A stretch of DNA of 64,000 bases from an uncultured Candidatus Saccharibacteria bacterium (lineage in GTDB: Bacteria > Patescibacteriota > Minisyncoccia > Phycocordibacterales > WO2-35-19): NCBI GenBank assembly GCA_964548205.1, contig CAZJPJ010000002.1, positions 5,737 through 69,736 of the forward strand, in the 5' to 3' direction. The position numbers and the translations under genes are program-made. Positions 17,717-64,000 of the stretch are shown in pieces. Every line of letters starts with the position of its first letter. Within the stretch, counting starts at the first letter, position 1. Under the pieces are notes generated by a model that saw only the letters and a list, made by a program, of their open reading frames with translations, was not told the origin of the DNA and did no database searches.

Positions 17717-18916
17717 ATGGCAGAATTTGATCGAAGCAAGCCACACGTAAACGTAGGTACCATAGGCCACGTTGACCATGGTAAGACAACACTCACAGCT
17801 TCTATACTTCGCACACTTGACCTAAACAAGGATAAGGGTTTTGGTGCTAGAGTAGAAGCGGTTGACAGTATTGACAATGCTCCAGAAGAAAAGGCAAGAG
17901 GGATAACCATTGCTCTTCACCACAGCGAATACTGGACACCAGATAGACACTATGCTCACATCGATGCTCCAGGTCACGCCGACTACATAAAGAACATGAT
18001 CACTGGTGCTGCTCAGATGGACGGTGCAGTACTTGTAGTAGCTGCTACAGATGGTGTGATGCCTCAGACAAGAGAGCACATCTTGCTCGCAAAGCAGGTG
18101 GGTGTACCTAAGATCATTGTTTTCCTAAACAAGTGTGACATGGTGCCTGACAACGACCTTATCGACCTAGTGGAAGAAGAAGTAAGAGAGCTTTTGACTA
18201 AAAACGGATACGATGGTGCAGGTACTCCTGTCATAAGAGGTTCTGGTCTAAAGGCTCTAGAAGCAACAAGTGCAGATGACGAATGGTCACAAAAAGTATT
18301 AGAACTTGTAAAGACTCTTGATAGCTATATCCCAATGCCAGAGCGTGATACAGAAAAGCCATTTCTTATGCCTATTGAAGACATATTCTCTATCGAAGGA
18401 AGAGGTACTGTGGTCACAGGTAAGATAGAACGCGGTATCGTAAAGGTAGGTGAAGAAGTAGAAATAATCGGTCTTAAGGACGCTCAGAAGACTACAGTTA
18501 CAGGTATAGAAATGTTCAACAAGAATCTTCAGGAAGGTCAGGCTGGAGACAACGCTGGTATCTTGCTCCGTGGTCTTAAGAAAGAAGATGTCCACCGAGG
18601 TCAGGTTATCGCAAAGACTGGCAGTGTTACACCACATACAGATTTTGAAGCAGAAGTGTATATCCTCAAGAAGGAAGAAGGTGGTAGACACACCCCGTTC
18701 TTTACTGGCTACAAACCACAATTTTACATACGAACTACTGATGTAACGGGTGAAGTGACTTTGAAGGAAGGTGTAGAAATGGTTATGCCTGGAGACACTG
18801 CTCAGTTTAAGGTAAAGCTTGTAGCTCCTGTAGCTCTAGAAGAGAAGCAAAAGTTTGCTATCCGCGAGGGTGGCAAGACAGTTGGAGCCGGTGTAGTAAC
18901 AAAAATCGTAGCATAA
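17717..18916 (+). CDS. tuf: Elongation factor Tu
   Basis: [18 protein letters not shown] and NKCD GTPase motifs. 399 aa. Confidence 0.97.
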
Positions 18917-58305: not shown

Positions 58306-58530
58306 CTTGTGTTTACATTGAGCTTGCCGAAGTGTTGCGGGCCGCTTCTAACGAGTCTCGCAAAATTTATTCCAAGATTGTTGCGGGGCCCAGACTCGCA
58401 CTAGGATCTTTTGGTTATGAGCCAAACGAATTACTTTACTCTACCCCGCAGATAATGATGTGAAAAATACTATCATATTTTTCATAGAATGCAAAATATC
58501 TAAAAGTGTGATAGATTTTCTATGCAAAAC

Positions 58531-58603
58531 GACGGAGTAGCTCAGTTGGTAGAGCACAGGACTCATAAGCCTGGGGTCGTGGGTTCAATCCCCACCTCCG
58601 TCA
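58531..58603 (+). tRNA. tRNA with CAT anticodon (Met elongator, or Ile2 if lysidinylated)
   Basis: Acceptor gacggag/ctccgtc, D arm gctc-agttggta-gagc, anticodon loop ctCATaa, T arm gtggg-ttcaatc-cccac, discriminator A. One A:G mismatch at 31:39. An extended -10 (TGaTAGATT) lies ~12 nt upstream. Confidence 0.75.
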
Positions 58604-58607
58604 CAAT

Positions 58608-58851: not shown

Positions 58852-59208
58852 CTACATACCCAGTGTGCTTATAGTGTCTACATAAGTACGCAAGAAGGCT
58901 GGTATGGCAAATACAAGGCCTATGACTGGCACCACGAATACTATTATAGTGATGATAGCTGTCCACTTTATATAATTGCGTATTTTTTCTACTGATATAT
59001 GTACTGCATCGATCTTGCGCTCGAGCTCATCGAGCCTTTTTTGGATATCTGGTTGCATGAGTACATAGTAGCATTTTGAGGTTGAGATATGTAGAAGGGG
59101 CGTGAATTCATGCTTGACCATATAGTAAAAAGCCTCTTTGAAATTGTGTAATTTCATGTATAATAACCTTCGTTCTTCCAGATTATTTTTAGATAGGAAG
59201 AAACGCAT
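58852..59208 (-). CDS. Hypothetical membrane-anchored protein
   Basis: 118-aa ORF with a C-terminal TM (WTAIITIIVFVVPVIGLVFAIPAFL). Confidence 0.4.
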   Translation of the reverse strand: MRFFLSKNNLEERRLLYMKLHNFKEAFYYMVKHEFTPLLHISTSKCYYVLMQPDIQKRLDELERKIDAVHISVEKIRNYIKWTAIITIIVFVVPVIGLVFAIPAFLRTYVDTISTLGM

Positions 59209-59229
59209 TTTTGAAAGATTTATAAAAAT

Positions 59230-59511
59230 GCGGGTGTAGCTCAGCTGGTTAGAGCGTCCGCCTGTAGATATGCAGCTTTTTGCCGAAAAGGCAAATTGAA
59301 ACTCTTTGGGATATCGGTGAAGGCTAAGTCTTATTTATATATATAGGATATGCGAACACCGAGGGAACTCGCCGATAAGGCGAGAGCGCCGTAGAGACTA
59401 GATACCAAAGCACCTAAAAGGAAACTCATGGTGAAGATATAGTCCACTCCGCTATGAAAATAGCGGGTAAGTGCACGCGGAAGGCCGTGGGTTCAAATCC
59501 CATCACTCGCG
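59230..59511 (+). tRNA. tRNA-Asp(GUC) gene interrupted by a group I intron in the anticodon loop (exon 1 59230-59265, exon 2 59474-59511)
   Basis: Exons join to gcgggtg-ta-gctc-agctggtta-gagc-g-tccgc-CTGTCAC-gcgga-aggcc-gtggg-ttcaaat-cccat-cactcgc-G. G10, G73 and the CUGUCAC loop are as in canonical tRNA-Asp. The 5' splice site follows U35 and pairs ctgt with the gcag guide (U:G). The intron ends in G. Confidence 0.8.
59266..59473 (+). ncRNA. Group I (self-splicing) intron, ~208 nt, Azoarcus/tRNA-intron type core
   Basis: The P7-P9 region cgccGTAGAGACTAGAtaccaaagCACCTAAaaGGaAACtCATGG closely matches the Azoarcus tRNA-Ile intron core (GUAGAGACUAGACGGCACCCACCUAAGGCAAACGCUAUGG). gggat...ctaagtc resembles its P3-P4 segment. 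No ORF inside. Confidence 0.75.
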
Positions 59512-59591
59512 CATCGATTTTTATACTGTGGTTAAGCCACAAAAACCACACACCCCTAAGGGATTAGAACTGTGGTAGTATTTTGGGTATG
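59497..59591 (+). repeat. Cassette-junction repeat family A, founder copy (tRNA-Asp 3' end plus downstream ~80 nt)
   Basis: aaatcccatcactcgcgcatcgatttttatactgtggttaagccacaaaaaccacacacccctaagggattagaactgtggtagtattttgggtATGg. Near-identical copies occur at 62471-62577 and 63646-63754. Confidence 0.8.
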
Positions 59592-60071
59592 GAAAATGAA
59601 ATTGAAAGAAAGTTCTATGTTAAAGAAATGCCTGATTTGTCTCTAACCAAGCCATTGCATTATGAAAGATTTTTCTTAGAAAGAAGTGAGGGAAGAGAGA
59701 TTAGGATTTCGAAAGTAGATAACAGGTATTGGTATGAAGTAAAGAATGAGTTATCCGAATTGGAAAGAACACGAGAAAAGAAAGAAATAACAAAAGAAGA
59801 GTTTGATAGCTTAAAACGGGGTTCCTCAGAAGTTATTATGAGGGAAAGATACGATCTTTCGTCTAATCCTAAAATTTCAATACAGATATATCACGGAAGA
59901 TTTGAAGGTCTAGTAAGAGCTGAGGTTGAGTTTGAAACAGAGGAAGAAGCTAAAAACTTCAAACCCTTGGAATGGATGGGAGAAGAAATGACGGGGTTGC
60001 CGATTGCTAGGGATAGTAAACTTATTGATCTATCGGATGCAGAATTTAAGACATATTTAAAATTGATTTAG
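59589..60071 (+). CDS. CYTH-domain protein (triphosphate tunnel metalloenzyme)
   Basis: N-terminal EIERKFYV (the ExExK motif of CYTH). Acidic residues recur in the alternating-strand pattern. ATG start preferred over the TTG at 59583. Confidence 0.6.
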   Translation: MENEIERKFYVKEMPDLSLTKPLHYERFFLERSEGREIRISKVDNRYWYEVKNELSELERTREKKEITKEEFDSLKRGSSEVIMRERYDLSSNPKISIQIYHGRFEGLVRAEVEFETEEEAKNFKPLEWMGEEMTGLPIARDSKLIDLSDAEFKTYLKLI

Positions 60072-60123
60072 TAAAATCAGTATTCATTTAATTGTTAGCG
60101 GGAGTTCCCAATTTACTACTGTT

Positions 60124-60309
60124 ATGATAAAAATAGAGGGGAAGGATCATATGAGCGAAGAAAATGACTTATACAGAGCTCTTGTTGATGCCCAGGCGAG
60201 AAGAGCCTCAATGGCAACAGAAAGCAGTCTCTGCCCCACGTGTGGGGCTACTATGATAAAAAGCGGTGGGCATTACCACTGCGAAACTCATGGCTCTCCA
60301 AAAAAATGA
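60124..60309 (+). CDS. Hypothetical small zinc-ribbon protein
   Basis: CPTCG...HYHCETHG four-ligand motif. 61 aa. Confidence 0.4.
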   Translation: MIKIEGKDHMSEENDLYRALVDAQARRASMATESSLCPTCGATMIKSGGHYHCETHGSPKK

Positions 60310-60349
60310 GGACTGATTAAAACAGCCAGACACTCAGAAAGGAGGTATT

Positions 60350-60399
60350 GTGTCTGGCTTTCGCTTTTATAAATATAGAGTGATAGTATTTCGGGTATG
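60350..60399 (+). repeat. Promoter/start-module repeat family B, copy 1
   Basis: gtgtctggctttcgcttttataaatatagagtgatagtatttcgggtATG. A 48/50 match occurs at 62107-62156. It carries the TGaTAGTAT extended -10 and a near-leaderless start context. It is preceded by the hairpin agccagacac...gtgtctggct. Confidence 0.7.
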
Positions 60400-60924
60400 A
60401 AAATCTACTTAATAAGACATGGTGAGACAACTGGTGATATAGAAGATAGATATGGTGGTAGTTATGACGACCATCTTACAGAGTTAGGAAGACAACAGAT
60501 TCAAGAAACAGCCGATAAAATTGTAGGAAAAGGGATAGAAATCATTTTTACCAGTACCCTTATAAGAGCAAAGGAATCTGGACAAATAATTTCTTCAAAG
60601 ATTGGTTGTGCGGTAGAAGAAAGAGAAGGTCTACAAGAAAGACACTATGGCATTCTAACTGGTCTTACAAAAGCTGAAGCCCTAGAAAAATACCCAGAAG
60701 TTGTGGAAGCGCATAAGGACTCAAAAAATACTGACCCAGAAGGGGAGAGTTATGAAGACTTTCAAAACAGAGTTCTGAATTCATTCAAAGAAATACAAAA
60801 AGAAAACTATAATACTGTTGCCATAGTCTCTCATGGTGGCCCAATTAAGCAAATCCTGGCTTACTTGAATATGGATATTCCTGAAAAACTGGGAGACGGA
60901 GAGATAATTGAGTTTGAACATTAG
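60397..60924 (+). CDS. Histidine phosphatase family protein (phosphoglycerate mutase-like)
   Basis: MKIYLIRHGET (RHG catalytic motif), ...VSHGGPI second His. Confidence 0.65.
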   Translation: MKIYLIRHGETTGDIEDRYGGSYDDHLTELGRQQIQETADKIVGKGIEIIFTSTLIRAKESGQIISSKIGCAVEEREGLQERHYGILTGLTKAEALEKYPEVVEAHKDSKNTDPEGESYEDFQNRVLNSFKEIQKENYNTVAIVSHGGPIKQILAYLNMDIPEKLGDGEIIEFEH

Positions 60925-60951
60925 TTCTAACGTCGTACACTACCCCGCGCA
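60923..60951 (+). repeat. Partial copy of junction repeat A (5' part only)
   Basis: agttctaacgtcgtacactaccccgcgca versus agttctaacatcgtacactagctcgcgca in the full copies. Confidence 0.6.
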
Positions 60952-61216
60952 AGACCAAAAATTGCTGGATTTTTTCCAGCAATTTTTGCGTCTATGCACG
61001 ATGTAGAAGCAAGCCAACTGCTTGGCTTGCGTTGGGATTTGAAAAGCGCAGCCATGTTTTTGTAGCAACAAAAACAGGCGAGCTAGGGTCATGAAAAATT
61101 TTCTGCAGAAAATTTATTCCTGACCAAATCCCATCACTCGCGCTAAGGGACTTTTTCTTAAAATATGTTGATAAATAAAGCCCGTTGGGTTCTAACGGGA
61201 GCTATTGTTTTTTTAT
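60952..61216. other. Highly structured noncoding region carrying an exact 19-nt copy of the tRNA-Asp 3' end (att-like) and ending in an intrinsic terminator
   Basis: Perfect hairpins at 60955-60989 (14-bp stem), 61009-61030 and 61056-61077. The self-complementary gaaaattttc occurs twice around tgcag. caaatcccatcactcgcgc at 61125-61143 equals the tRNA-Asp 3' end. Terminator cccgtt-gggttct-aacggg plus T7 lies at 61179-61216. Confidence 0.55.
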
Positions 61217-61304
61217 CATATCTATTATATAATTAGACCACTACTTAAACACGAGTAGTCGGTAACAACGAACATGTTCCCGCAATCCAAACAGAGGTGA
61301 AAAT

Positions 61305-61655
61305 ATGCCCGAGATTATTCTTTCTAGGCTGCAGTATGTGGCGGCGGGTATCGTCTTTCAGTCGTCGTTGTTTTCGTTTGACGATCTGGCTCATTTGAAT
61401 CATGTCGAGGTCAAGATTGCACCGACGACGGTTGGAAAGAGGGCCTTGATTGCTTATGTAAAGTTGTACTTCGATCGTTGGACATATGTTCAACACGGAC
61501 CCAGCGATCATCCTGCCCACAAAATGCCTGCAGAAGTCAGTGTTGTTTTCCTTCAGAACAGACAAAGGAAGCTGACGGGATACTACACTGTCGCCTTTTT
61601 CTACAACGGTGATCCTGGAGAACCGAAATTTCTCCATTCCATTGTTGGTTGGTAA
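61305..61655 (+). CDS. Hypothetical protein encoded in a GC-rich cassette
   Basis: Good Shine-Dalgarno (GAGGTG) 7 nt upstream of the ATG. The ORF region is much more GC-rich than the genome. A fully overlapping antisense ORF (61245-61658) exists, so the strand call is tentative. Confidence 0.4.
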   Translation: MPEIILSRLQYVAAGIVFQSSLFSFDDLAHLNHVEVKIAPTTVGKRALIAYVKLYFDRWTYVQHGPSDHPAHKMPAEVSVVFLQNRQRKLTGYYTVAFFYNGDPGEPKFLHSIVGW

Positions 61656-61817
61656 CAAACGCTCTGGAGAACAGCGTCCAACTTCAGCCTCGCGCTAACA
61701 CCGTGGGGCTTTCCATTTTTAATGCAAATGCAGTTCTAACATCATCCCTGCCCGCAATGCTTCGCATAGCGATGCAGGCGGGCACTAGGTGTTCCGAATT
61801 ATGCTAATATTTCACGC

Positions 61818-62096
61818 ATGATACGTTGGTTGGTTGATCGTAAATACTTTAGAAACGAAAATCATGCCATATGGTTTGCATGTTCGCTGGCCATAATATT
61901 TTTCGTGACACTCACGTATCTGAGGCCAAGCAAATTCATTTTTCTTTTGACACCGCTCGTTGTACATATACCCGCTCTCATAAACTCTTCTATCTCCGTT
62001 TACTTTGCTAAGGAGAGCGACTTGTATTCTAAAGACTGCATTTGGTTCAATGCTCTTTTGATAATTGTTTACCTAATATTATTTTCACTTTTTTAG
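61818..62096 (+). CDS. Hypothetical membrane protein (3 TM)
   Basis: 92-aa hydrophobic ORF. An upstream sequence (61721-61790) starts with cagttctaacatc, like the junction repeat, followed by nested GC hairpins. Confidence 0.4.
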   Translation: MIRWLVDRKYFRNENHAIWFACSLAIIFFVTLTYLRPSKFIFLLTPLVVHIPALINSSISVYFAKESDLYSKDCIWFNALLIIVYLILFSLF

Positions 62097-62106
62097 ACTC
62101 TATAGA

Positions 62107-62156
62107 GTGTCTGGCTTTCGCTTTTATAAAGATAGAGTGATAGTATTTTGGGTATG
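62107..62156 (+). repeat. Promoter/start-module repeat family B, copy 2
   Basis: gtgtctggctttcgcttttataaagatagagtgatagtattttgggtATG. Confidence 0.7.
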
Positions 62157-62480
62157 GAAAAAGTAAAAATTGTTGTGTTTGTTCCAGAAACTCATGCTGA
62201 TGCGGTTAGAAAAGCTGTTGGAGAAGCAGGTGCTGGAAAAATTGGAAACTATATCCATTGTAGCTTTTCAGTAAAGGGCAAAGGAAGATTCATTCCTCAA
62301 GATGGAGCTGACCCAACAATAGGGGAAATAGGTAGATACGAAGAGGTAGACGAAGAAAGAATCGAGTTTGTTTGTGACAAGGGTATGTTAGATCAAGTGA
62401 TTAAAGCTATGAAAGAAGTACACCCATATGAAGAGGTTGCATATGATGTTTACCCACTTTTAATAAAATCCCAGTTCTAA
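62154..62480 (+). CDS. Hypothetical small alpha/beta protein, tentatively PII/CutA-like fold
   Basis: KIVVFVPETHADAVRKAVGEAGAGKIGNY...HPYEEVAYDVYPL resembles GlnB-like superfamily members (HPYE motif as in CutA). The ATG start is used rather than the TTG at 62148. The stop codon lies inside the junction repeat. Confidence 0.4.
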   Translation: MEKVKIVVFVPETHADAVRKAVGEAGAGKIGNYIHCSFSVKGKGRFIPQDGADPTIGEIGRYEEVDEERIEFVCDKGMLDQVIKAMKEVHPYEEVAYDVYPLLIKSQF

Positions 62481-62577
62481 CATCGTACACTAGCTCGCGC
62501 ATCGGTTTTTCTATTGTGGTTAAGCCACAAAAACCACACACCCCTAAGGGATTTGAACTGTGGTATATTGGGATAGG
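62471..62577 (+). repeat. Cassette-junction repeat family A, copy 2
   Basis: ccagttctaacatcgtacactagctcgcgcatcggtttttctattgtggttaagccacaaaaaccacacacccctaagggatttgaactgtggtatattgggatagg. Confidence 0.8.
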
Positions 62578-62590
62578 AAAGAGGTGAATA

Positions 62591-63094
62591 TTGGAACGTG
62601 TAATAGAAATAGTTGGAAATATAGATGACCAAATGGCTGACATGTTTGAGGGAAAGATCCGAGAACTATCTGCTAAAGGAAATGATCCTATTTTGCTCGT
62701 GATTAGCTCACACGGTGGGTATGAAGCTCCCATGATAAGAATTATCGAGCAGATCAAAGCTTGCTCGGCCATTGTCAATGGGCGGGTTCGTGATTATGCA
62801 CATTCAGCAGGATTCGTTATTCTGCAATACTGCAAAGAGAGGAGAGCGCCTAGAGACAGCAGTCTGCTTCTTCATCTACCAAGATATGAAGCGGCAGATA
62901 TTACCAGAATGGTTGGCTTTCCAGCTGAGGAGGCCTGCGTAATCGAAGGTAATGAATTCTTCTATCGTTTTCTGGATTATCTAGGAGGAAGATCAAACCT
63001 TAACAGGTTTAAGCTTCGAGAGCTCGCAAGGGAAGATAGGGTGATTTTGGGGGCTGAAGCACTTGCCCTCGGTTTTCTTGACTGTTTGGAATAA
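62591..63094 (+). CDS. ClpP-family serine peptidase-like protein (phage prohead-protease type)
   Basis: ILLVISSHGGYEAPMIRII, nucleophile context YAHSAGFVIL, His in LLLHLP. TTG start with an AAGAGG Shine-Dalgarno. Confidence 0.5.
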   Translation: MERVIEIVGNIDDQMADMFEGKIRELSAKGNDPILLVISSHGGYEAPMIRIIEQIKACSAIVNGRVRDYAHSAGFVILQYCKERRAPRDSSLLLHLPRYEAADITRMVGFPAEEACVIEGNEFFYRFLDYLGGRSNLNRFKLRELAREDRVILGAEALALGFLDCLE

Positions 63095-63157
63095 CACGCC
63101 GCCCGATGCGAGGCACGACCTCGGTCGGGCTCTCGCTTTTTATGCTATATTCTTGGT

Positions 63158-63655
63158 ATGGAATCTCAGCCCAAACAATTTAACTATGAGAATAGTCTAA
63201 TAAGAGAAGTTTATGAATTATTAGGAGCCAGCACTCCGCTTGAGCTCCATGATAAATATGTCATAGAAGAACAGAAATTATTTAAGTCTCATGAATGGGA
63301 TTATGATAACCATGAGCAAATACAGAATAAGGTAAAAGATATTTTAGATAACGTAGATCCCACCACTCTTACTGAAGAGGAGCAAGAATGGAGACAGGAG
63401 ATACTGTGGTTCTGGTACCACCATGCTATTAGCTGTGCCATCTGGAAGAAAGATAGAGAAAAAGCTATTGAGTACTCAGAAAAAGCACTTTCTCTACAAG
63501 ATCGAGATCACCCTAATAAAATAACTAAGGTTCTTAGTTTGCTTGTCAACGACAAACTAGAAGAAGCAGAGGAATTTGTAAAAACTATTAATACCGATAA
63601 AGACACGGCCGAAGGGTTAATCGAGGATTATAAGAATGGAGGATTCCAGTTCTAA
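63158..63655 (+). CDS. Hypothetical protein
   Basis: 165-aa acidic ORF. Its last codons (…QF*) are provided by the junction repeat, as for the 62154 ORF. Confidence 0.4.
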   Translation: MESQPKQFNYENSLIREVYELLGASTPLELHDKYVIEEQKLFKSHEWDYDNHEQIQNKVKDILDNVDPTTLTEEEQEWRQEILWFWYHHAISCAIWKKDREKAIEYSEKALSLQDRDHPNKITKVLSLLVNDKLEEAEEFVKTINTDKDTAEGLIEDYKNGGFQF

Positions 63656-63754
63656 CATCGTACACTAGCTCGCGCATCGGTTTTTATATTGTGGTTAAGC
63701 CACAAAAACCACACACCCCTAAGGGATTTGAACTGTGGTAGTATTTTGGGTATG
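63646..63754 (+). repeat. Cassette-junction repeat family A, copy 3
   Basis: ccagttctaacatcgtacactagctcgcgcatcggtttttatattgtggttaagccacaaaaaccacacacccctaagggatttgaactgtggtagtattttgggtATG. Confidence 0.8.
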
Positions 63755-64000
63755 GAAATATTGGAATTATCTGAAATAGGTGAGAAGGTAATAAAAAACA
63801 AGACAAATATTTTAATTGGTTTAAGTATAAACAATAGCTATTTCAAAGATGGAAACCTGGAGAAAATAATCCAATGGTCAGCAGAAAATGCAAAAAGAAT
63901 ATTCATAATGATACCTGATAAACCTGCCATTTTTACCTTAATGAGCTTTGGTTATTCTGAAGATAAGGCTAAGGCAAAGGCTCGCCTCGAATCTAATAGA
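63752..64000 (+). CDS. Cyclodipeptide synthase (tRNA-dependent, CDPS)-like protein, N-terminal 83 aa (3' end outside the window)
   Basis: NILIGLSINNSYFKDGNLEKIIQWSAENAKRIFIMIPDKPAIFTLMSFGYSEDKAKAKAR parallels the CDPS N-terminal core (for example the B. subtilis YvmC-like [24 protein letters not shown]...LLAGHEAANLLEALG...KAERKVR), including the catalytic Ser context. Confidence 0.5.
   Translation, partial: MEILELSEIGEKVIKNKTNILIGLSINNSYFKDGNLEKIIQWSAENAKRIFIMIPDKPAIFTLMSFGYSEDKAKAKARLESNR

What the first reader, a model, noticed from the sequence alone, without database searches (positions are those of the whole stretch)
59230..59511. tRNA-Asp(GUC) gene split by a ~208-nt group I intron in the anticodon loop
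Joining 59230-59265 to 59474-59511 reconstitutes a textbook tRNA-Asp: G10, G73 and the CUGUCAC loop. The intervening 208 nt carries a group I P7-P9 core almost identical in primary sequence to the Azoarcus tRNA-Ile intron (GTAGAGACTAGA...CACCTAA..GG.AAC..ATGG). The 5' exon ends in U, pairing with a gcag guide, and the intron ends in G. Bacterial tRNA group I introns are known for Leu(UAA), fMet, Ile(CAU) and Arg(CCU). An insertion in tRNA-Asp between positions 35/36, in a CPR-like genome, would be unusual. It also places a ribozyme at the exact site later used as a recombination anchor (see the cassette array).
Basis: partly seen in the sequence, partly recalled or inferred. Interest (0 to 1): 0.8.

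Follow-up and report, generated by a model that had tools for sequence, protein, structure and literature searches.

The report
Self-splicing intron inside a tRNA-Asp gene

Summary
Window 59230-59265 plus 59474-59511 make a clean tRNA-Asp(GUC). The 208 nt between them (59266-59473) is a group I intron between anticodon-loop positions 35 and 36.

Evidence:
- Intron-aware ARAGORN calls tRNA-Asp(gtc) i(37,208).
- Rfam Intron_gpI scores 47.8 bits, E=4.6e-9 for the whole window. This is 2.2 bits below the gathering cut-off, so default annotation misses it.
- P1-P9 plus P9.0 can be drawn, with a U.G wobble at the 5' splice site and a terminal G.
- In 35 homologous introns, 93% of cells pair, against 35-42% in slid controls, and 31 of 59 pairs show compensatory changes.
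- 95 of the 97 loci from the GTDB and metagenome scans match the window's pre-tRNA. Every GTDB record with a phylum-level label is Patescibacteria, and many loci share the ligA-gatC-gatA neighbourhood.

It is not new. Nakagawa et al. (mSystems 2026, PMC13011429; preprint 2025) describe group I introns at 35/36 in Patescibacteria tRNA-Asp and tRNA-Asn. They show in vitro self-splicing and list a Paceibacteria intron of the same family (83% identical).

The claim that the intron sits at the exact recombination anchor is wrong. The downstream repeats overlap only the tRNA's 3' end (59494 onward).

Verdict: real, correctly interpreted, already known. Interest is low.

The parts
59138..59164 (+). 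Promoter-like element for the tRNA-Asp gene: TTGAAA (59138-59143), 15-nt spacer, TG-TATAAT (59157-59164)
   Evidence: Inferred. The CTCTTTGAAA...ATGTATAAT block is conserved at the same distance upstream of the intron-containing tRNA-Asp in most related loci. The consensus scanner did not report it because it requires a 16-18 nt spacer.
59165..59229 (+). 5' leader of the pre-tRNA with a hairpin (TTCTTCC 59173-59179 / GGAAGAA 59196-59202), presumably removed by RNase P
   Evidence: DNA-level conservation extends about 95 nt upstream of the tRNA in L012, L024, L002, L022, L008 and others. Function is inferred.
59230..59265 (+). tRNA-Asp 5' exon: acceptor 5' strand, D-arm, anticodon-stem 5' strand, C32 U33 G34 U35
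   Evidence: The 5' exon ends in GCCTGT in all 35 aligned sequences (window plus 34 relatives).
59266..59473 (+). Group I intron, 208 nt, no ORF
   Evidence: RF00028 at 47.8 bits, E=4.6e-9. Covariation. MFE fold z=-4.57 reproduces the helices. Only spurious ORFs of 41 aa or less overlap it.
59262..59275 (+). P1: CUGU|A (59262-59266) pairs with UGCAG (59271-59275). U35 (59265) with G59271 is the wobble pair at the 5' splice site. GCAG is the internal guide.
   Evidence: Four pairs are invariant in 35 of 35 sequences; the fifth covaries (AU 32, CG 2, GC 1).
59279..59295 (+). P2 hairpin (UUUGCC/GGCAAA) with a GAAA-type loop L2
   Evidence: All 6 pairs show compensatory changes. The loop A residues are invariant.
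59304..59309 (+). P3 5' strand (CUUUGG), pairs with 59405-59410
   Evidence: 100% of cells paired; 4 of 6 pairs have changes on both sides.
59314..59362 (+). P4-P5-P5a domain: P4 59314-19/59357-62, P5 59323-24/59352-53, P5a 59328-34/59343-49. The motif GCUAAG...UAUGC resembles an 11-nt GAAA-tetraloop receptor.
   Evidence: P4 U-A/A-U covariation (21 vs 14 sequences). P5a has 6 of 7 pairs compensatory. The receptor motif columns are invariant. The receptor role is inferred from the known motif.
59363..59390 (+). P6 (GG/CC) and P6a (CUCGCC/GGCGAG)
   Evidence: P6 is invariant. P6a has 5 of 6 pairs compensatory; the MAFFT alignment is imperfect in this length-variable hairpin.
59396..59400 (+). 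P7 5' strand GACUA. G59396-C59444 is the presumed guanosine-binding pair. Pairs with 59440-59444.
   Evidence: Aligned to P7 of RF00028. It is invariant in the alignment, but the 3' strand was part of my search pattern, so invariance there is by construction.
59405..59410 (+). P3 3' strand (CCAAAG). It forms the P3/P7 pseudoknot.
59411..59433 (+). P8 hairpin CACC...GGUG with CCUAAA...CAUGG. The family consensus CCUAAG...UAUGG equals the 11-nt receptor.
   Evidence: The receptor role is inferred.
59434..59444 (+). J8/7 (AAGAUA) and P7 3' strand (UAGUC)
   Evidence: Matches the RF00028 consensus gAAGAUAUAGUC exactly.
59446..59472 (+). P9.0 (ACU 59446-48 / AGU 59470-72) enclosing P9 (CCGCUAU 59449-55 / AUAGCGG 59460-66) with an invariant GAAA loop L9
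   Evidence: P9.0 covaries in register with the last G (ACG/CGU, AUG/CAU, ACU/AGU). P9 has 5 of 7 pairs compensatory.
59473..59473 (+). Omega-G, the last intron nucleotide
   Evidence: Invariant G immediately before CACGC in all 35 sequences.
59474..59511 (+). tRNA-Asp 3' exon: C36 A37 C38, anticodon-stem 3' strand, variable loop, T-arm, acceptor 3' strand, G73
   Evidence: The best E. coli matches of the spliced tRNA are all annotated tRNA-Asp.

Best explanation
Window 59230-59511 is a functional tRNA-Asp(GUC) gene interrupted between anticodon-loop nucleotides U35 and C36 by a 208-nt group I self-splicing intron with no ORF. It belongs to the family found at this site in Patescibacteria, class Paceibacteria.

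Proposed mechanism:
1. The gene is transcribed from its own promoter about 70 nt upstream (inferred).
2. The intron folds into P1-P9. The internal guide GCAG pairs with exon CUGU, placing the U35.G wobble at the 5' splice site (shown in sequence and by covariation).
3. Exogenous guanosine bound at the P7 G-C pair attacks after U35 (inferred from the group I mechanism; shown in vitro for a homologous tRNA-Asp intron in PMC13011429).
4. P9.0 positions the terminal G59473 in the same site, and the freed U35 3'-OH attacks after it. This joins U35 to C36 and restores the anticodon GUC.
5. The exons are probably held together by the anticodon stem rather than by a P10 helix.
6. The two GAAA-type loops (L2, L9) probably clamp the fold by docking into the 11-nt-receptor-like motifs in P8 and P5 (inferred by analogy).
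7. RNase P, 3' trimming and CCA addition then complete the tRNA.

With no homing endonuclease, and with the same ligA-gatC-gatA neighbourhood in many relatives, the intron appears to be inherited vertically.
For: - Exon and intron boundaries and the cloverleaf.
- RF00028 full-length hit at 47.8 bits, E=4.6e-9 window-wide.
- The MFE fold independently gives P1, P2, P3, P4, P5/5a, P6/6a, P8, P9.0, P9 and the exon-exon anticodon stem, with z=-4.57.
- In 35 homologues, 93.2% of 2045 cells pair against 35-42% when partners are slid. 31 of 59 pairs have compensatory changes, and 0 of 500 shuffles reach the observed values.
- 35 GTDB species genomes and 62 metagenome contigs carry the pattern; 95 of these 97 loci match the window's pre-tRNA by blastn. 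All GTDB records with a phylum-level label are Patescibacteria.
- Synteny with ligA-gatC-gatA.
- Published precedent with in vitro splicing, junction sequencing and an omega-G-to-C control. A same-family Paceibacteria sequence is in their Table S3, 83% identical over aligned positions.
- No ORF in the intron.
Against: - The Rfam score is 2.2 bits below the curated gathering cut-off.
- No Watson-Crick P10 can be drawn between the 3' exon (CAC...) and the nucleotides 5' of the guide.
- P1, P5, P6, P7 and most of P8 never vary, so they are uninformative, and the P7 3' strand and J8/7 were fixed by my search pattern.
- Splicing of this particular sequence has not been tested. The experimentally spliced tRNA-Asp intron is only 63% identical.
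- A 2-nt-shifted boundary also obeys the U/G rule (see rival 1).
- Whether the genome holds an intron-less tRNA-Asp copy elsewhere is unknown.
Confidence: 0.95

Rival explanations
1. The gene is tRNA-Ala(UGC) with the same intron placed two nucleotides upstream, at 33/34. The 5' exon would end at U33 (59263) and the intron at G59471, giving the loop CUUGCAC.
For: Both boundaries also satisfy 'U before, G at the end' (sequence). The published survey reports that ARAGORN and tFind sometimes make exactly this call for Patescibacteria tRNA-Asp genes.
Against: - In P1 the only U.G wobble is at U35; U33 pairs with A.
- P9.0 covaries in register with the three nucleotides directly before G59473, not G59471.
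- The acceptor stem has G3-C70, not the alanine determinant G3.U70, and the discriminator is G73 as in tRNA-Asp (identity rules are from established knowledge).
- ARAGORN calls Asp here, and the best E. coli matches are tRNA-Asp.
- Junction sequencing of a homologous intron gave 35/36.
Confidence: 0.02
2. The intron is a decayed or protein-dependent relic that no longer self-splices. The locus would then be a tRNA pseudogene or need an unknown cofactor.
For: This exact sequence has not been tested. The score is slightly under the Rfam gathering cut-off. No P10 can be drawn.
Against: - Every core element is intact and under purifying selection, with compensatory changes across 35 species.
- The gene sits at a conserved syntenic position with a conserved promoter.
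- No other tRNA-Asp is in the window.
Confidence: 0.03
3. The ribozyme is functionally tied to the downstream repeat-bounded gene cassettes, for example by marking or creating the recombination site.
For: A repeat array does start at the 3' end of this tRNA.
Against: - The repeats share sequence with the tRNA only from 59494 or 59504 onward (T-loop to the 3' end), not with the anticodon loop or the intron.
- Integration at tRNA 3' ends is common irrespective of introns (established knowledge).
- Relatives carry the same intron without the 1.4-kb insertion. For example, the L041 sequence directly after its tRNA corresponds to window 60945-61096.
Confidence: 0.01

Closest known systems
Group I introns at position 35/36 of tRNA-Asp(GUC) and tRNA-Asn(GUU) in Patescibacteria (Nakagawa, Amikura, Omae, Suzuki, mSystems 2026, PMC13011429; preprint 10.1101/2025.07.03.662931)
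   Same: Same host tRNA, same insertion site, same phylum, the same GCAG-type guide pairing with CUGU, terminal G, no homing endonuclease, and missed by default tRNA finders. Their Table S3 entry GCA_023898525.1 (Paceibacteria, Asp 35/36) is the same family: 83% identity over aligned positions.
   Different: This exact sequence is not one of theirs. The nearest public relative is about 85% identical (L012, a Zambryskiibacteriota MAG). The intron they spliced in vitro (Microgenomatia GCA_001029755.1) is only 63% identical. They report Patescibacteria tRNA introns as subgroup IA. This family lacks the P7.1/P7.2 insertion seen in their IA1- and IA2-labelled examples.
Classical bacterial IC3 tRNA introns (cyanobacterial tRNA-Leu(UAA) at 34/35; Azoarcus tRNA-Ile(CAU); Agrobacterium tRNA-Arg(CCU))
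   Same: Small size (about 200 nt) and a P1-P2-P3-P4-P5-P6-P7-P8-P9 layout without P7.1/P7.2. The J6/7-P7-P3'-P8-J8/7-P7' core is collinear with GTAGAGACTAGA...CACCT.A...ATGGTGAAG..ATAGTCC. GAAA loops in L2 and L9 are paired with 11-nt-receptor-like motifs in P8 and P5. The Azoarcus comparison itself rests on my recollection of that sequence.
   Different: The insertion site (35/36 rather than 33/34, 34/35 or 36/37), host tRNA and host phylum all differ. Overall identity to IC3-labelled introns is only 63-71% over aligned positions, no better than to IA-labelled ones. Subgroup covariance models could not be run.
tFind catalogue of tRNA group I introns (Williams 2020, bioRxiv 10.1101/2020.01.27.920355)
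   Same: It expanded the known intron-interrupted bacterial tRNA classes from 4 to 21. PMC13011429 credits it as the first record of the 35/36 site.
   Different: The text does not mention Asp, and the class table is an image, so I could not confirm that tRNA-Asp was among the 21.

Membership tests
Group I intron (Rfam RF00028) | Significant full-length match to the group I covariance model | tested here: met
   47.8 bits over model positions 1-253. E=4e-11 for the region and 4.6e-9 for the whole window. It is 2.2 bits under the curated gathering score of 50, so it fails the annotation cut-off but not significance.
Group I intron (Rfam RF00028) | P1 helix between the 5' exon and an internal guide, with a U.G wobble at the 5' splice site | tested here: met
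   CUGUA (59262-66) pairs with UGCAG (59271-75). U59265.G59271 is found in 35 of 35 homologues.
Group I intron (Rfam RF00028) | Terminal guanosine (omega-G) at the 3' splice site | tested here: met
   G59473 is invariant in 35 of 35 sequences. P9.0 covaries in register just upstream.
Group I intron (Rfam RF00028) | Conserved core: P3-P8 and P4-P6 domains, P3/P7 pseudoknot, J8/7 | tested here: met
   All helices can be drawn. P2, P3, P4, P5a, P6a, P9.0 and P9 have compensatory changes. 93.2% of cells pair against 35-42% in slid controls. P7 and J8/7 are identical to the model consensus, but they were fixed by my search pattern.
Group I intron (Rfam RF00028) | P10 pairing between the guide and the 3' exon | tested here: not met
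   There is no Watson-Crick complementarity between CAC (59474-76) and the nucleotides 5' of the guide. The MFE fold instead pairs the two exons as the anticodon stem. P10 is not universal or essential. The paper reports splicing of introns at this site, but I did not check whether those have a P10.
Group I intron (Rfam RF00028) | Guanosine-dependent self-splicing | not testable with these tools
   Shown in vitro for a homologous tRNA-Asp 35/36 intron (63% identical) in PMC13011429.
Patescibacteria 35/36 tRNA introns (PMC13011429) | Insertion between nucleotides 35 and 36 of tRNA-Asp(GUC) or tRNA-Asn(GUU) | tested here: met
Patescibacteria 35/36 tRNA introns (PMC13011429) | Sequence homology to a listed member | tested here: met
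   83% identity over aligned positions to GCA_023898525.1 Paceibacteria Asp, and 76% to GCA_030583765.1 Paceibacteria Asn.
Patescibacteria 35/36 tRNA introns (PMC13011429) | Host is a Patescibacteria genome | tested here: met
   Indirect. All labelled GTDB genomes with this intron are Patescibacteria/CPR (two are labelled only 'bacterium'). The nearest is a Zambryskiibacteriota MAG, and flanking ligA-gatC-gatA is syntenic. The window's own taxon was not determined independently.
Patescibacteria 35/36 tRNA introns (PMC13011429) | Subgroup IA by best-scoring subgroup covariance model | not testable with these tools
   The subgroup models are not available here. The part of Table S5 holding Patescibacteria rows was cut when stored. 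Structurally there is no P7.1/P7.2: the gap from the P7 5' strand to the P7 3' strand is 39 nt, like IC3/IB3-labelled introns (29-39) and unlike IA1/IA2/IA3-labelled ones (58-81).
tRNA-Asp | Canonical cloverleaf with anticodon GUC after splicing | tested here: met
   ARAGORN on the spliced sequence.
tRNA-Asp | Asp identity nucleotides (G73, G10, G34 U35 C36, C38) and absence of the Ala G3.U70 pair | tested here: met
   Read from the sequence and the ARAGORN drawing. The identity rules are from established knowledge. The best E. coli matches are annotated tRNA-Asp (weak, 75% over 61 nt).

The most novel reading that the evidence does not exclude
This Paceibacteria tRNA-Asp intron family may be structurally an IC3/Azoarcus-type minimal ribozyme: no P7.1/P7.2, and two GAAA-loop/11-nt-receptor clamps (L2-P8 and L9-P5). 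The published survey assigns Patescibacteria tRNA introns to subgroup IA. Its 5' part (P1-P2-P3-P4) resembles the IA1-labelled tRNA-Asn 35/36 introns. That would suggest one mosaic intron lineage that spread among the GUN-anticodon tRNAs by reverse splicing at their shared CUGU loop sequence and then shed or gained the P7.1/P7.2 module.
Probability: 0.25. Interest if true: 0.3.

Novelty: already known. Interest (0 to 1): 0.15.

Why it matters
The practical point is annotation. Default ARAGORN and the Rfam tRNA and group I models at curated thresholds all miss this gene, so the genome would appear to lack tRNA-Asp and its completeness would be underestimated. The 2026 paper already makes this point.

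My scans extend the known spread of this tRNA-Asp intron from 3 complete genomes in that paper to 35 GTDB species genomes plus 62 metagenome contigs. They also supply comparative support for its secondary structure.

Biologically, it is one more case of a ribozyme retained in an essential single-copy gene of a highly reduced genome. It does not open a new question.

Tried and rejected
- Verifying the Azoarcus similarity. Two full-text searches for Azoarcus intron sequence strings found nothing usable. The comparison therefore uses a sequence recalled from memory and counts only as a lead. I substituted IC3-labelled introns from Table S5 of PMC13011429.
- Getting the published subgroup label for the Paceibacteria tRNA-Asp intron. 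The stored supplement is truncated before the Patescibacteria rows of Table S5.
- Checking whether Williams 2020 already listed tRNA-Asp. The text has no mention and the table is an image.
- Identifying the source genome through the GatA protein. Only an 8.4-kb Logan contig (SRR15237813) turned up, and it ends before the tRNA-Asp.
- Searching for a phage origin. No viral contig carries the pattern. The phage collection gave only an 80% match over a 92-nt stretch of the query (81 bases of the phage record) to the intron core in one uncultured 485-kb phage, plus a plain tRNA-Asp hit.
- Using the promoter scanner. It did not report the conserved upstream TTGAAA/TGTATAAT block because the spacer is 15 nt.
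- The 'recombination anchor at the intron site' idea was considered and rejected.
- The tRNA-Ala(UGC) 33/34 boundary was considered and rejected (see rivals).
- I did not build a covariance model.

Full report
**Observation.** Window 59230-59265 (36 nt) and 59474-59511 (38 nt) are separated by exactly 208 nt. Joined, they give GCGGGUG-UA-GCUC-AGCUGGUUA-GAGC-G-UCCGC-CUGUCAC-GCGGA-AGGCC-GUGGG-UUCAAAU-CCCAU-CACUCGC-G. ARAGORN draws this as a canonical tRNA-Asp(GUC) with G10, C38 and G73. On the raw sequence, ARAGORN with introns allowed reports tRNA-Asp(gtc) i(37,208). Default ARAGORN and the Rfam tRNA model do not see the gene. No CCA is encoded. No other tRNA-Asp is in the window.

**The insert is a group I intron.** At gathering thresholds Rfam reports nothing here. 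With E-value reporting, RF00028 Intron_gpI matches 59254-59466 over the whole model (1-253) at 47.8 bits. That is 2.2 bits under the gathering score of 50. E is 4e-11 for the region and 4.6e-9 for the whole window.

I drew the following structure:

| Element | 5' strand | 3' strand |
|---|---|---|
| P1 | 59262-66 | 59271-75 |
| P2 | 59279-84 | 59290-95 |
| P3 | 59304-09 | 59405-10 |
| P4 | 59314-19 | 59357-62 |
| P5 | 59323-24 | 59352-53 |
| P5a | 59328-34 | 59343-49 |
| P6 | 59363-64 | 59389-90 |
| P6a | 59368-73 | 59379-84 |
| P7 | 59396-400 | 59440-44 |
| P8 | 59411-14 | 59430-33 |
| P9.0 | 59446-48 | 59470-72 |
| P9 | 59449-55 | 59460-66 |

J8/7 is 59434-39 and omega-G is 59473. In P1, exon CUGU pairs with the guide GCAG, and U35.G is the only wobble, sitting at the splice site. 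An unconstrained MFE fold of 59258-59481 independently reproduces every nested helix and also pairs the two exons as the anticodon stem. Its energy is -75 kcal/mol, z=-4.57, and 0 of 200 shuffles fold as well. The intron holds no ORF beyond spurious ones of 41 aa or less, so there is no homing endonuclease. I could not draw a P10.

**Relatives and covariation.** I scanned one genome per GTDB species for J8/7-P7' followed by omega-G, CACGC and the T-arm (GAAGRYATAGTC N15-45 GCACGC N11 GGTTC).
- The GTDB scan returned 35 loci. All with a phylum-level label are Patescibacteria/CPR MAGs: Paceibacteria, Zambryski-, Kaiser-, Vogel-, Nomura- and Doudnabacteria, some labelled Saccharibacteria. Two are labelled only 'bacterium'.
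- The same pattern found 62 JGI/ENA metagenome contigs and no viral contig.
- In 34 of the 35 GTDB loci the 5' exon ends in GCCUGU and is followed by an intron of 200-253 nt ending in G before CACGC. The remaining locus has a masked N run.
- Four loci that ARAGORN had called His or Tyr with shifted boundaries fit the same Asp 35/36 junction.
- All 35 introns are distinct. The nearest to the window is L012, a Zambryskiibacteriota MAG, at 85% over the pre-tRNA.

On the MAFFT alignment of the 35 introns (A1), my structure gives these counts:
- 93.2% of 2045 cells are standard pairs, against 35-42% when 3' partners are slid by 1-3 columns.
- 31 of 59 pairs have changes on both sides, and 227 cells have a double change.
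- 0 of 500 shuffles reach the observed value on any measure.
- Compensatory changes support P2 (6 of 6 pairs), P3 (4 of 6), P4 (U-A/A-U, 21 vs 14), P5a (6 of 7), P6a (5 of 6), P9.0 (2 of 3) and P9 (5 of 7).
- P1, P5, P6, P7 and most of P8 never vary and so say nothing. The P7 3' strand and J8/7 were fixed by the search pattern.

**Tertiary contacts (inferred).** L9 is an invariant GAAA and L2 is a GAAA-type loop. P5 carries GCUAAG...UAUGC. P8 carries CCUAAG...UAUGG in the family consensus, and CCUAAA...CAUGG in the window, an A.C in place of G.U. These match the classical 11-nt GAAA-tetraloop receptor. By analogy with the Azoarcus structure, L2 would dock on P8 and L9 on P5. This rests on established knowledge of the motif, not on a test here.

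**Which splice site.** A boundary shifted by 2 nt also has U before and G at the end. It would give tRNA-Ala(UGC) with the intron at 33/34, a confusion documented for these genes. I reject it for five reasons:
- The only U.G wobble in P1 is at U35.
- P9.0 covaries in register with the three nucleotides immediately before G59473 (ACG/CGU, AUG/CAU, ACU/AGU).
- The acceptor stem has G3-C70 rather than G3.U70, and the discriminator is G73.
- ARAGORN prefers Asp, and the spliced sequence's best E. coli matches are all annotated tRNA-Asp (weak, 75% over 61 nt).
- The junction of a homologous intron was sequenced as 35/36.

**Context.** Upstream lie ligA, gatC, gatA, a 246-aa ORF and two tRNA-Met genes. 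The ligA-gatC-gatA block is found next to the intron-containing tRNA-Asp in many related loci. That fits vertical inheritance. DNA conservation runs about 95 nt upstream of the tRNA. It includes a conserved TTGAAA-15 nt-TG-TATAAT block (59138-59164) and a leader hairpin. I read this as the gene's own promoter and leader (inferred).

**What is already known.** Nakagawa et al. (mSystems 2026, PMC13011429; preprint July 2025) report the following:
- A tRNA-Asp intron (GCA_001029755.1) and a tRNA-Asn intron self-splice in vitro. The junction was sequenced at 35/36, and an omega-G-to-C mutant blocked exon ligation.
- 19 of 28 introns at 35/36 in 4,934 complete genomes are from Patescibacteria.
- Most of these introns lack homing endonucleases.

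Their Table S3 lists a Paceibacteria tRNA-Asp intron (GCA_023898525.1) that is plainly the same family as the window's: 83% identity over aligned positions. The spliced Microgenomatia intron is 63% identical, and a Paceibacteria tRNA-Asn intron is 76% identical. They credit Williams 2020 (tFind) with the first record of the 35/36 site. I could not confirm Asp in that preprint.

**Subgroup.** The paper assigns Patescibacteria tRNA introns to IA by best-scoring covariance model. I could not run those models, and the relevant supplement rows were cut. Structurally the window's intron has only GAUA between the P7 5' strand and P3'. The gap from the P7 5' strand to the P7 3' strand is 39 nt. That resembles the IC3- and IB3-labelled introns in their Table S5 (29-39 nt), not the IA1/IA2/IA3-labelled ones (58-81 nt), which carry P7.1/P7.2. 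Overall identity does not separate the classes (62-72% to all).

It is a generic bacterial tRNA-intron core. My own Azoarcus comparison uses a remembered sequence and is only a lead.

**The recombination-anchor remark.** There is a repeat-bounded array downstream.
- A roughly 98-nt repeat occurs at 59480-59577, 62468-62565 and 63643-63740.
- An exact 19-nt copy of the tRNA 3' end (CAAATCCCATCACTCGCGC) lies at 61125-61143.
- Degenerate 3'-end-like boxes lie at 60923, 62473 and 63648.

All of these overlap the tRNA only from the T-loop or acceptor 3' strand onward. None touches the anticodon loop or the intron. The intron is therefore not at the recombination site.

**Verdict.** It is a further member of a published, experimentally validated class. 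Novelty: already known. Interest: low.

Noticed in passing
window 59480-63764: Repeat-bounded array of small gene cassettes starting at the 3' end of tRNA-Asp. A roughly 98-nt repeat (…CTCGCGCATCG.TTTTT.TA.TGTGGTTAAGCCACAAAAACCACACACCCCTAAGGGATT.GAACTGTGGTA) occurs at 59480-59577, 62468-62565 and 63643-63740. Each copy is followed by GTATTTTGGGTATGGAA and an ORF. Degenerate tRNA-3'-end-like boxes AGTTCTAAC.TCGTACACTA.C.CGCGCA lie at 60923, 62473 and 63648. No integrase is visible before the window ends.
   Followed up: partly
window 61125-61143; L002, L006, L012, L019, L029, L030, L031: An exact 19-nt copy of the tRNA-Asp 3' end lies 1.6 kb downstream of the gene. Six related loci (L002, L012, L019, L029, L030, L031) carry a second copy of their own tRNA-Asp 3' end 150-240 nt downstream of the gene, and L006 has a copy on the opposite strand beside it. 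This suggests the site is a recurrent integration target in this lineage.
   Followed up: partly
window 60945-61096 vs L041:1045-1197: The sequence directly after tRNA-Asp in a Hainich groundwater contig is 88% identical to window 60945-61096. Window 59512-60944 (three ORFs) therefore looks like an insertion between the tRNA and its ancestral downstream flank.
   Followed up: partly
window 59134-59229: A conserved upstream block: TTGAAA-15 nt-TG-TATAAT (59138-59164) and a leader hairpin (59173-59179 / 59196-59202). It is shared with many related loci at the same distance from the tRNA. It overlaps the N-terminal part of a minus-strand ORF (58852-59208), whose true start is probably further in.
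   Followed up: partly
L007, L011, L014, L020, L022, L030, L033, L036: Other intron-containing tRNA genes lie within a few kb of the tRNA-Asp in relatives. ARAGORN calls them Thr(ggt) i37, Arg(gcg) i35 (probably the divergent Thr(GGU) introns of the paper), Leu(caa) i36 and Met(cat) i33. The window's own neighbouring tRNA-Met genes have no intron.
   Followed up: no
window 58380-58450 (-) and 58531-58604 (+): A divergently oriented pair of tRNA(CAU) genes. The minus-strand one scores lower (53 bits) and has an atypical D-arm and a T-loop lacking GTTC (…UAGUGCGAGUCUGGG…).
   Followed up: no
window 17845-17920 (+): A weak sub-threshold match to the xanthine (NMT1) riboswitch aptamer RF03054: 28.1 bits against a gathering score of 36, E=0.046.
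   Followed up: no
phage record LR745208.1:167928-168008: An uncultured 485-kb phage genome has an 80% match to the intron core (window about 59355-59446). This is possibly a related group I intron in a huge phage. The record is unannotated.
   Followed up: no
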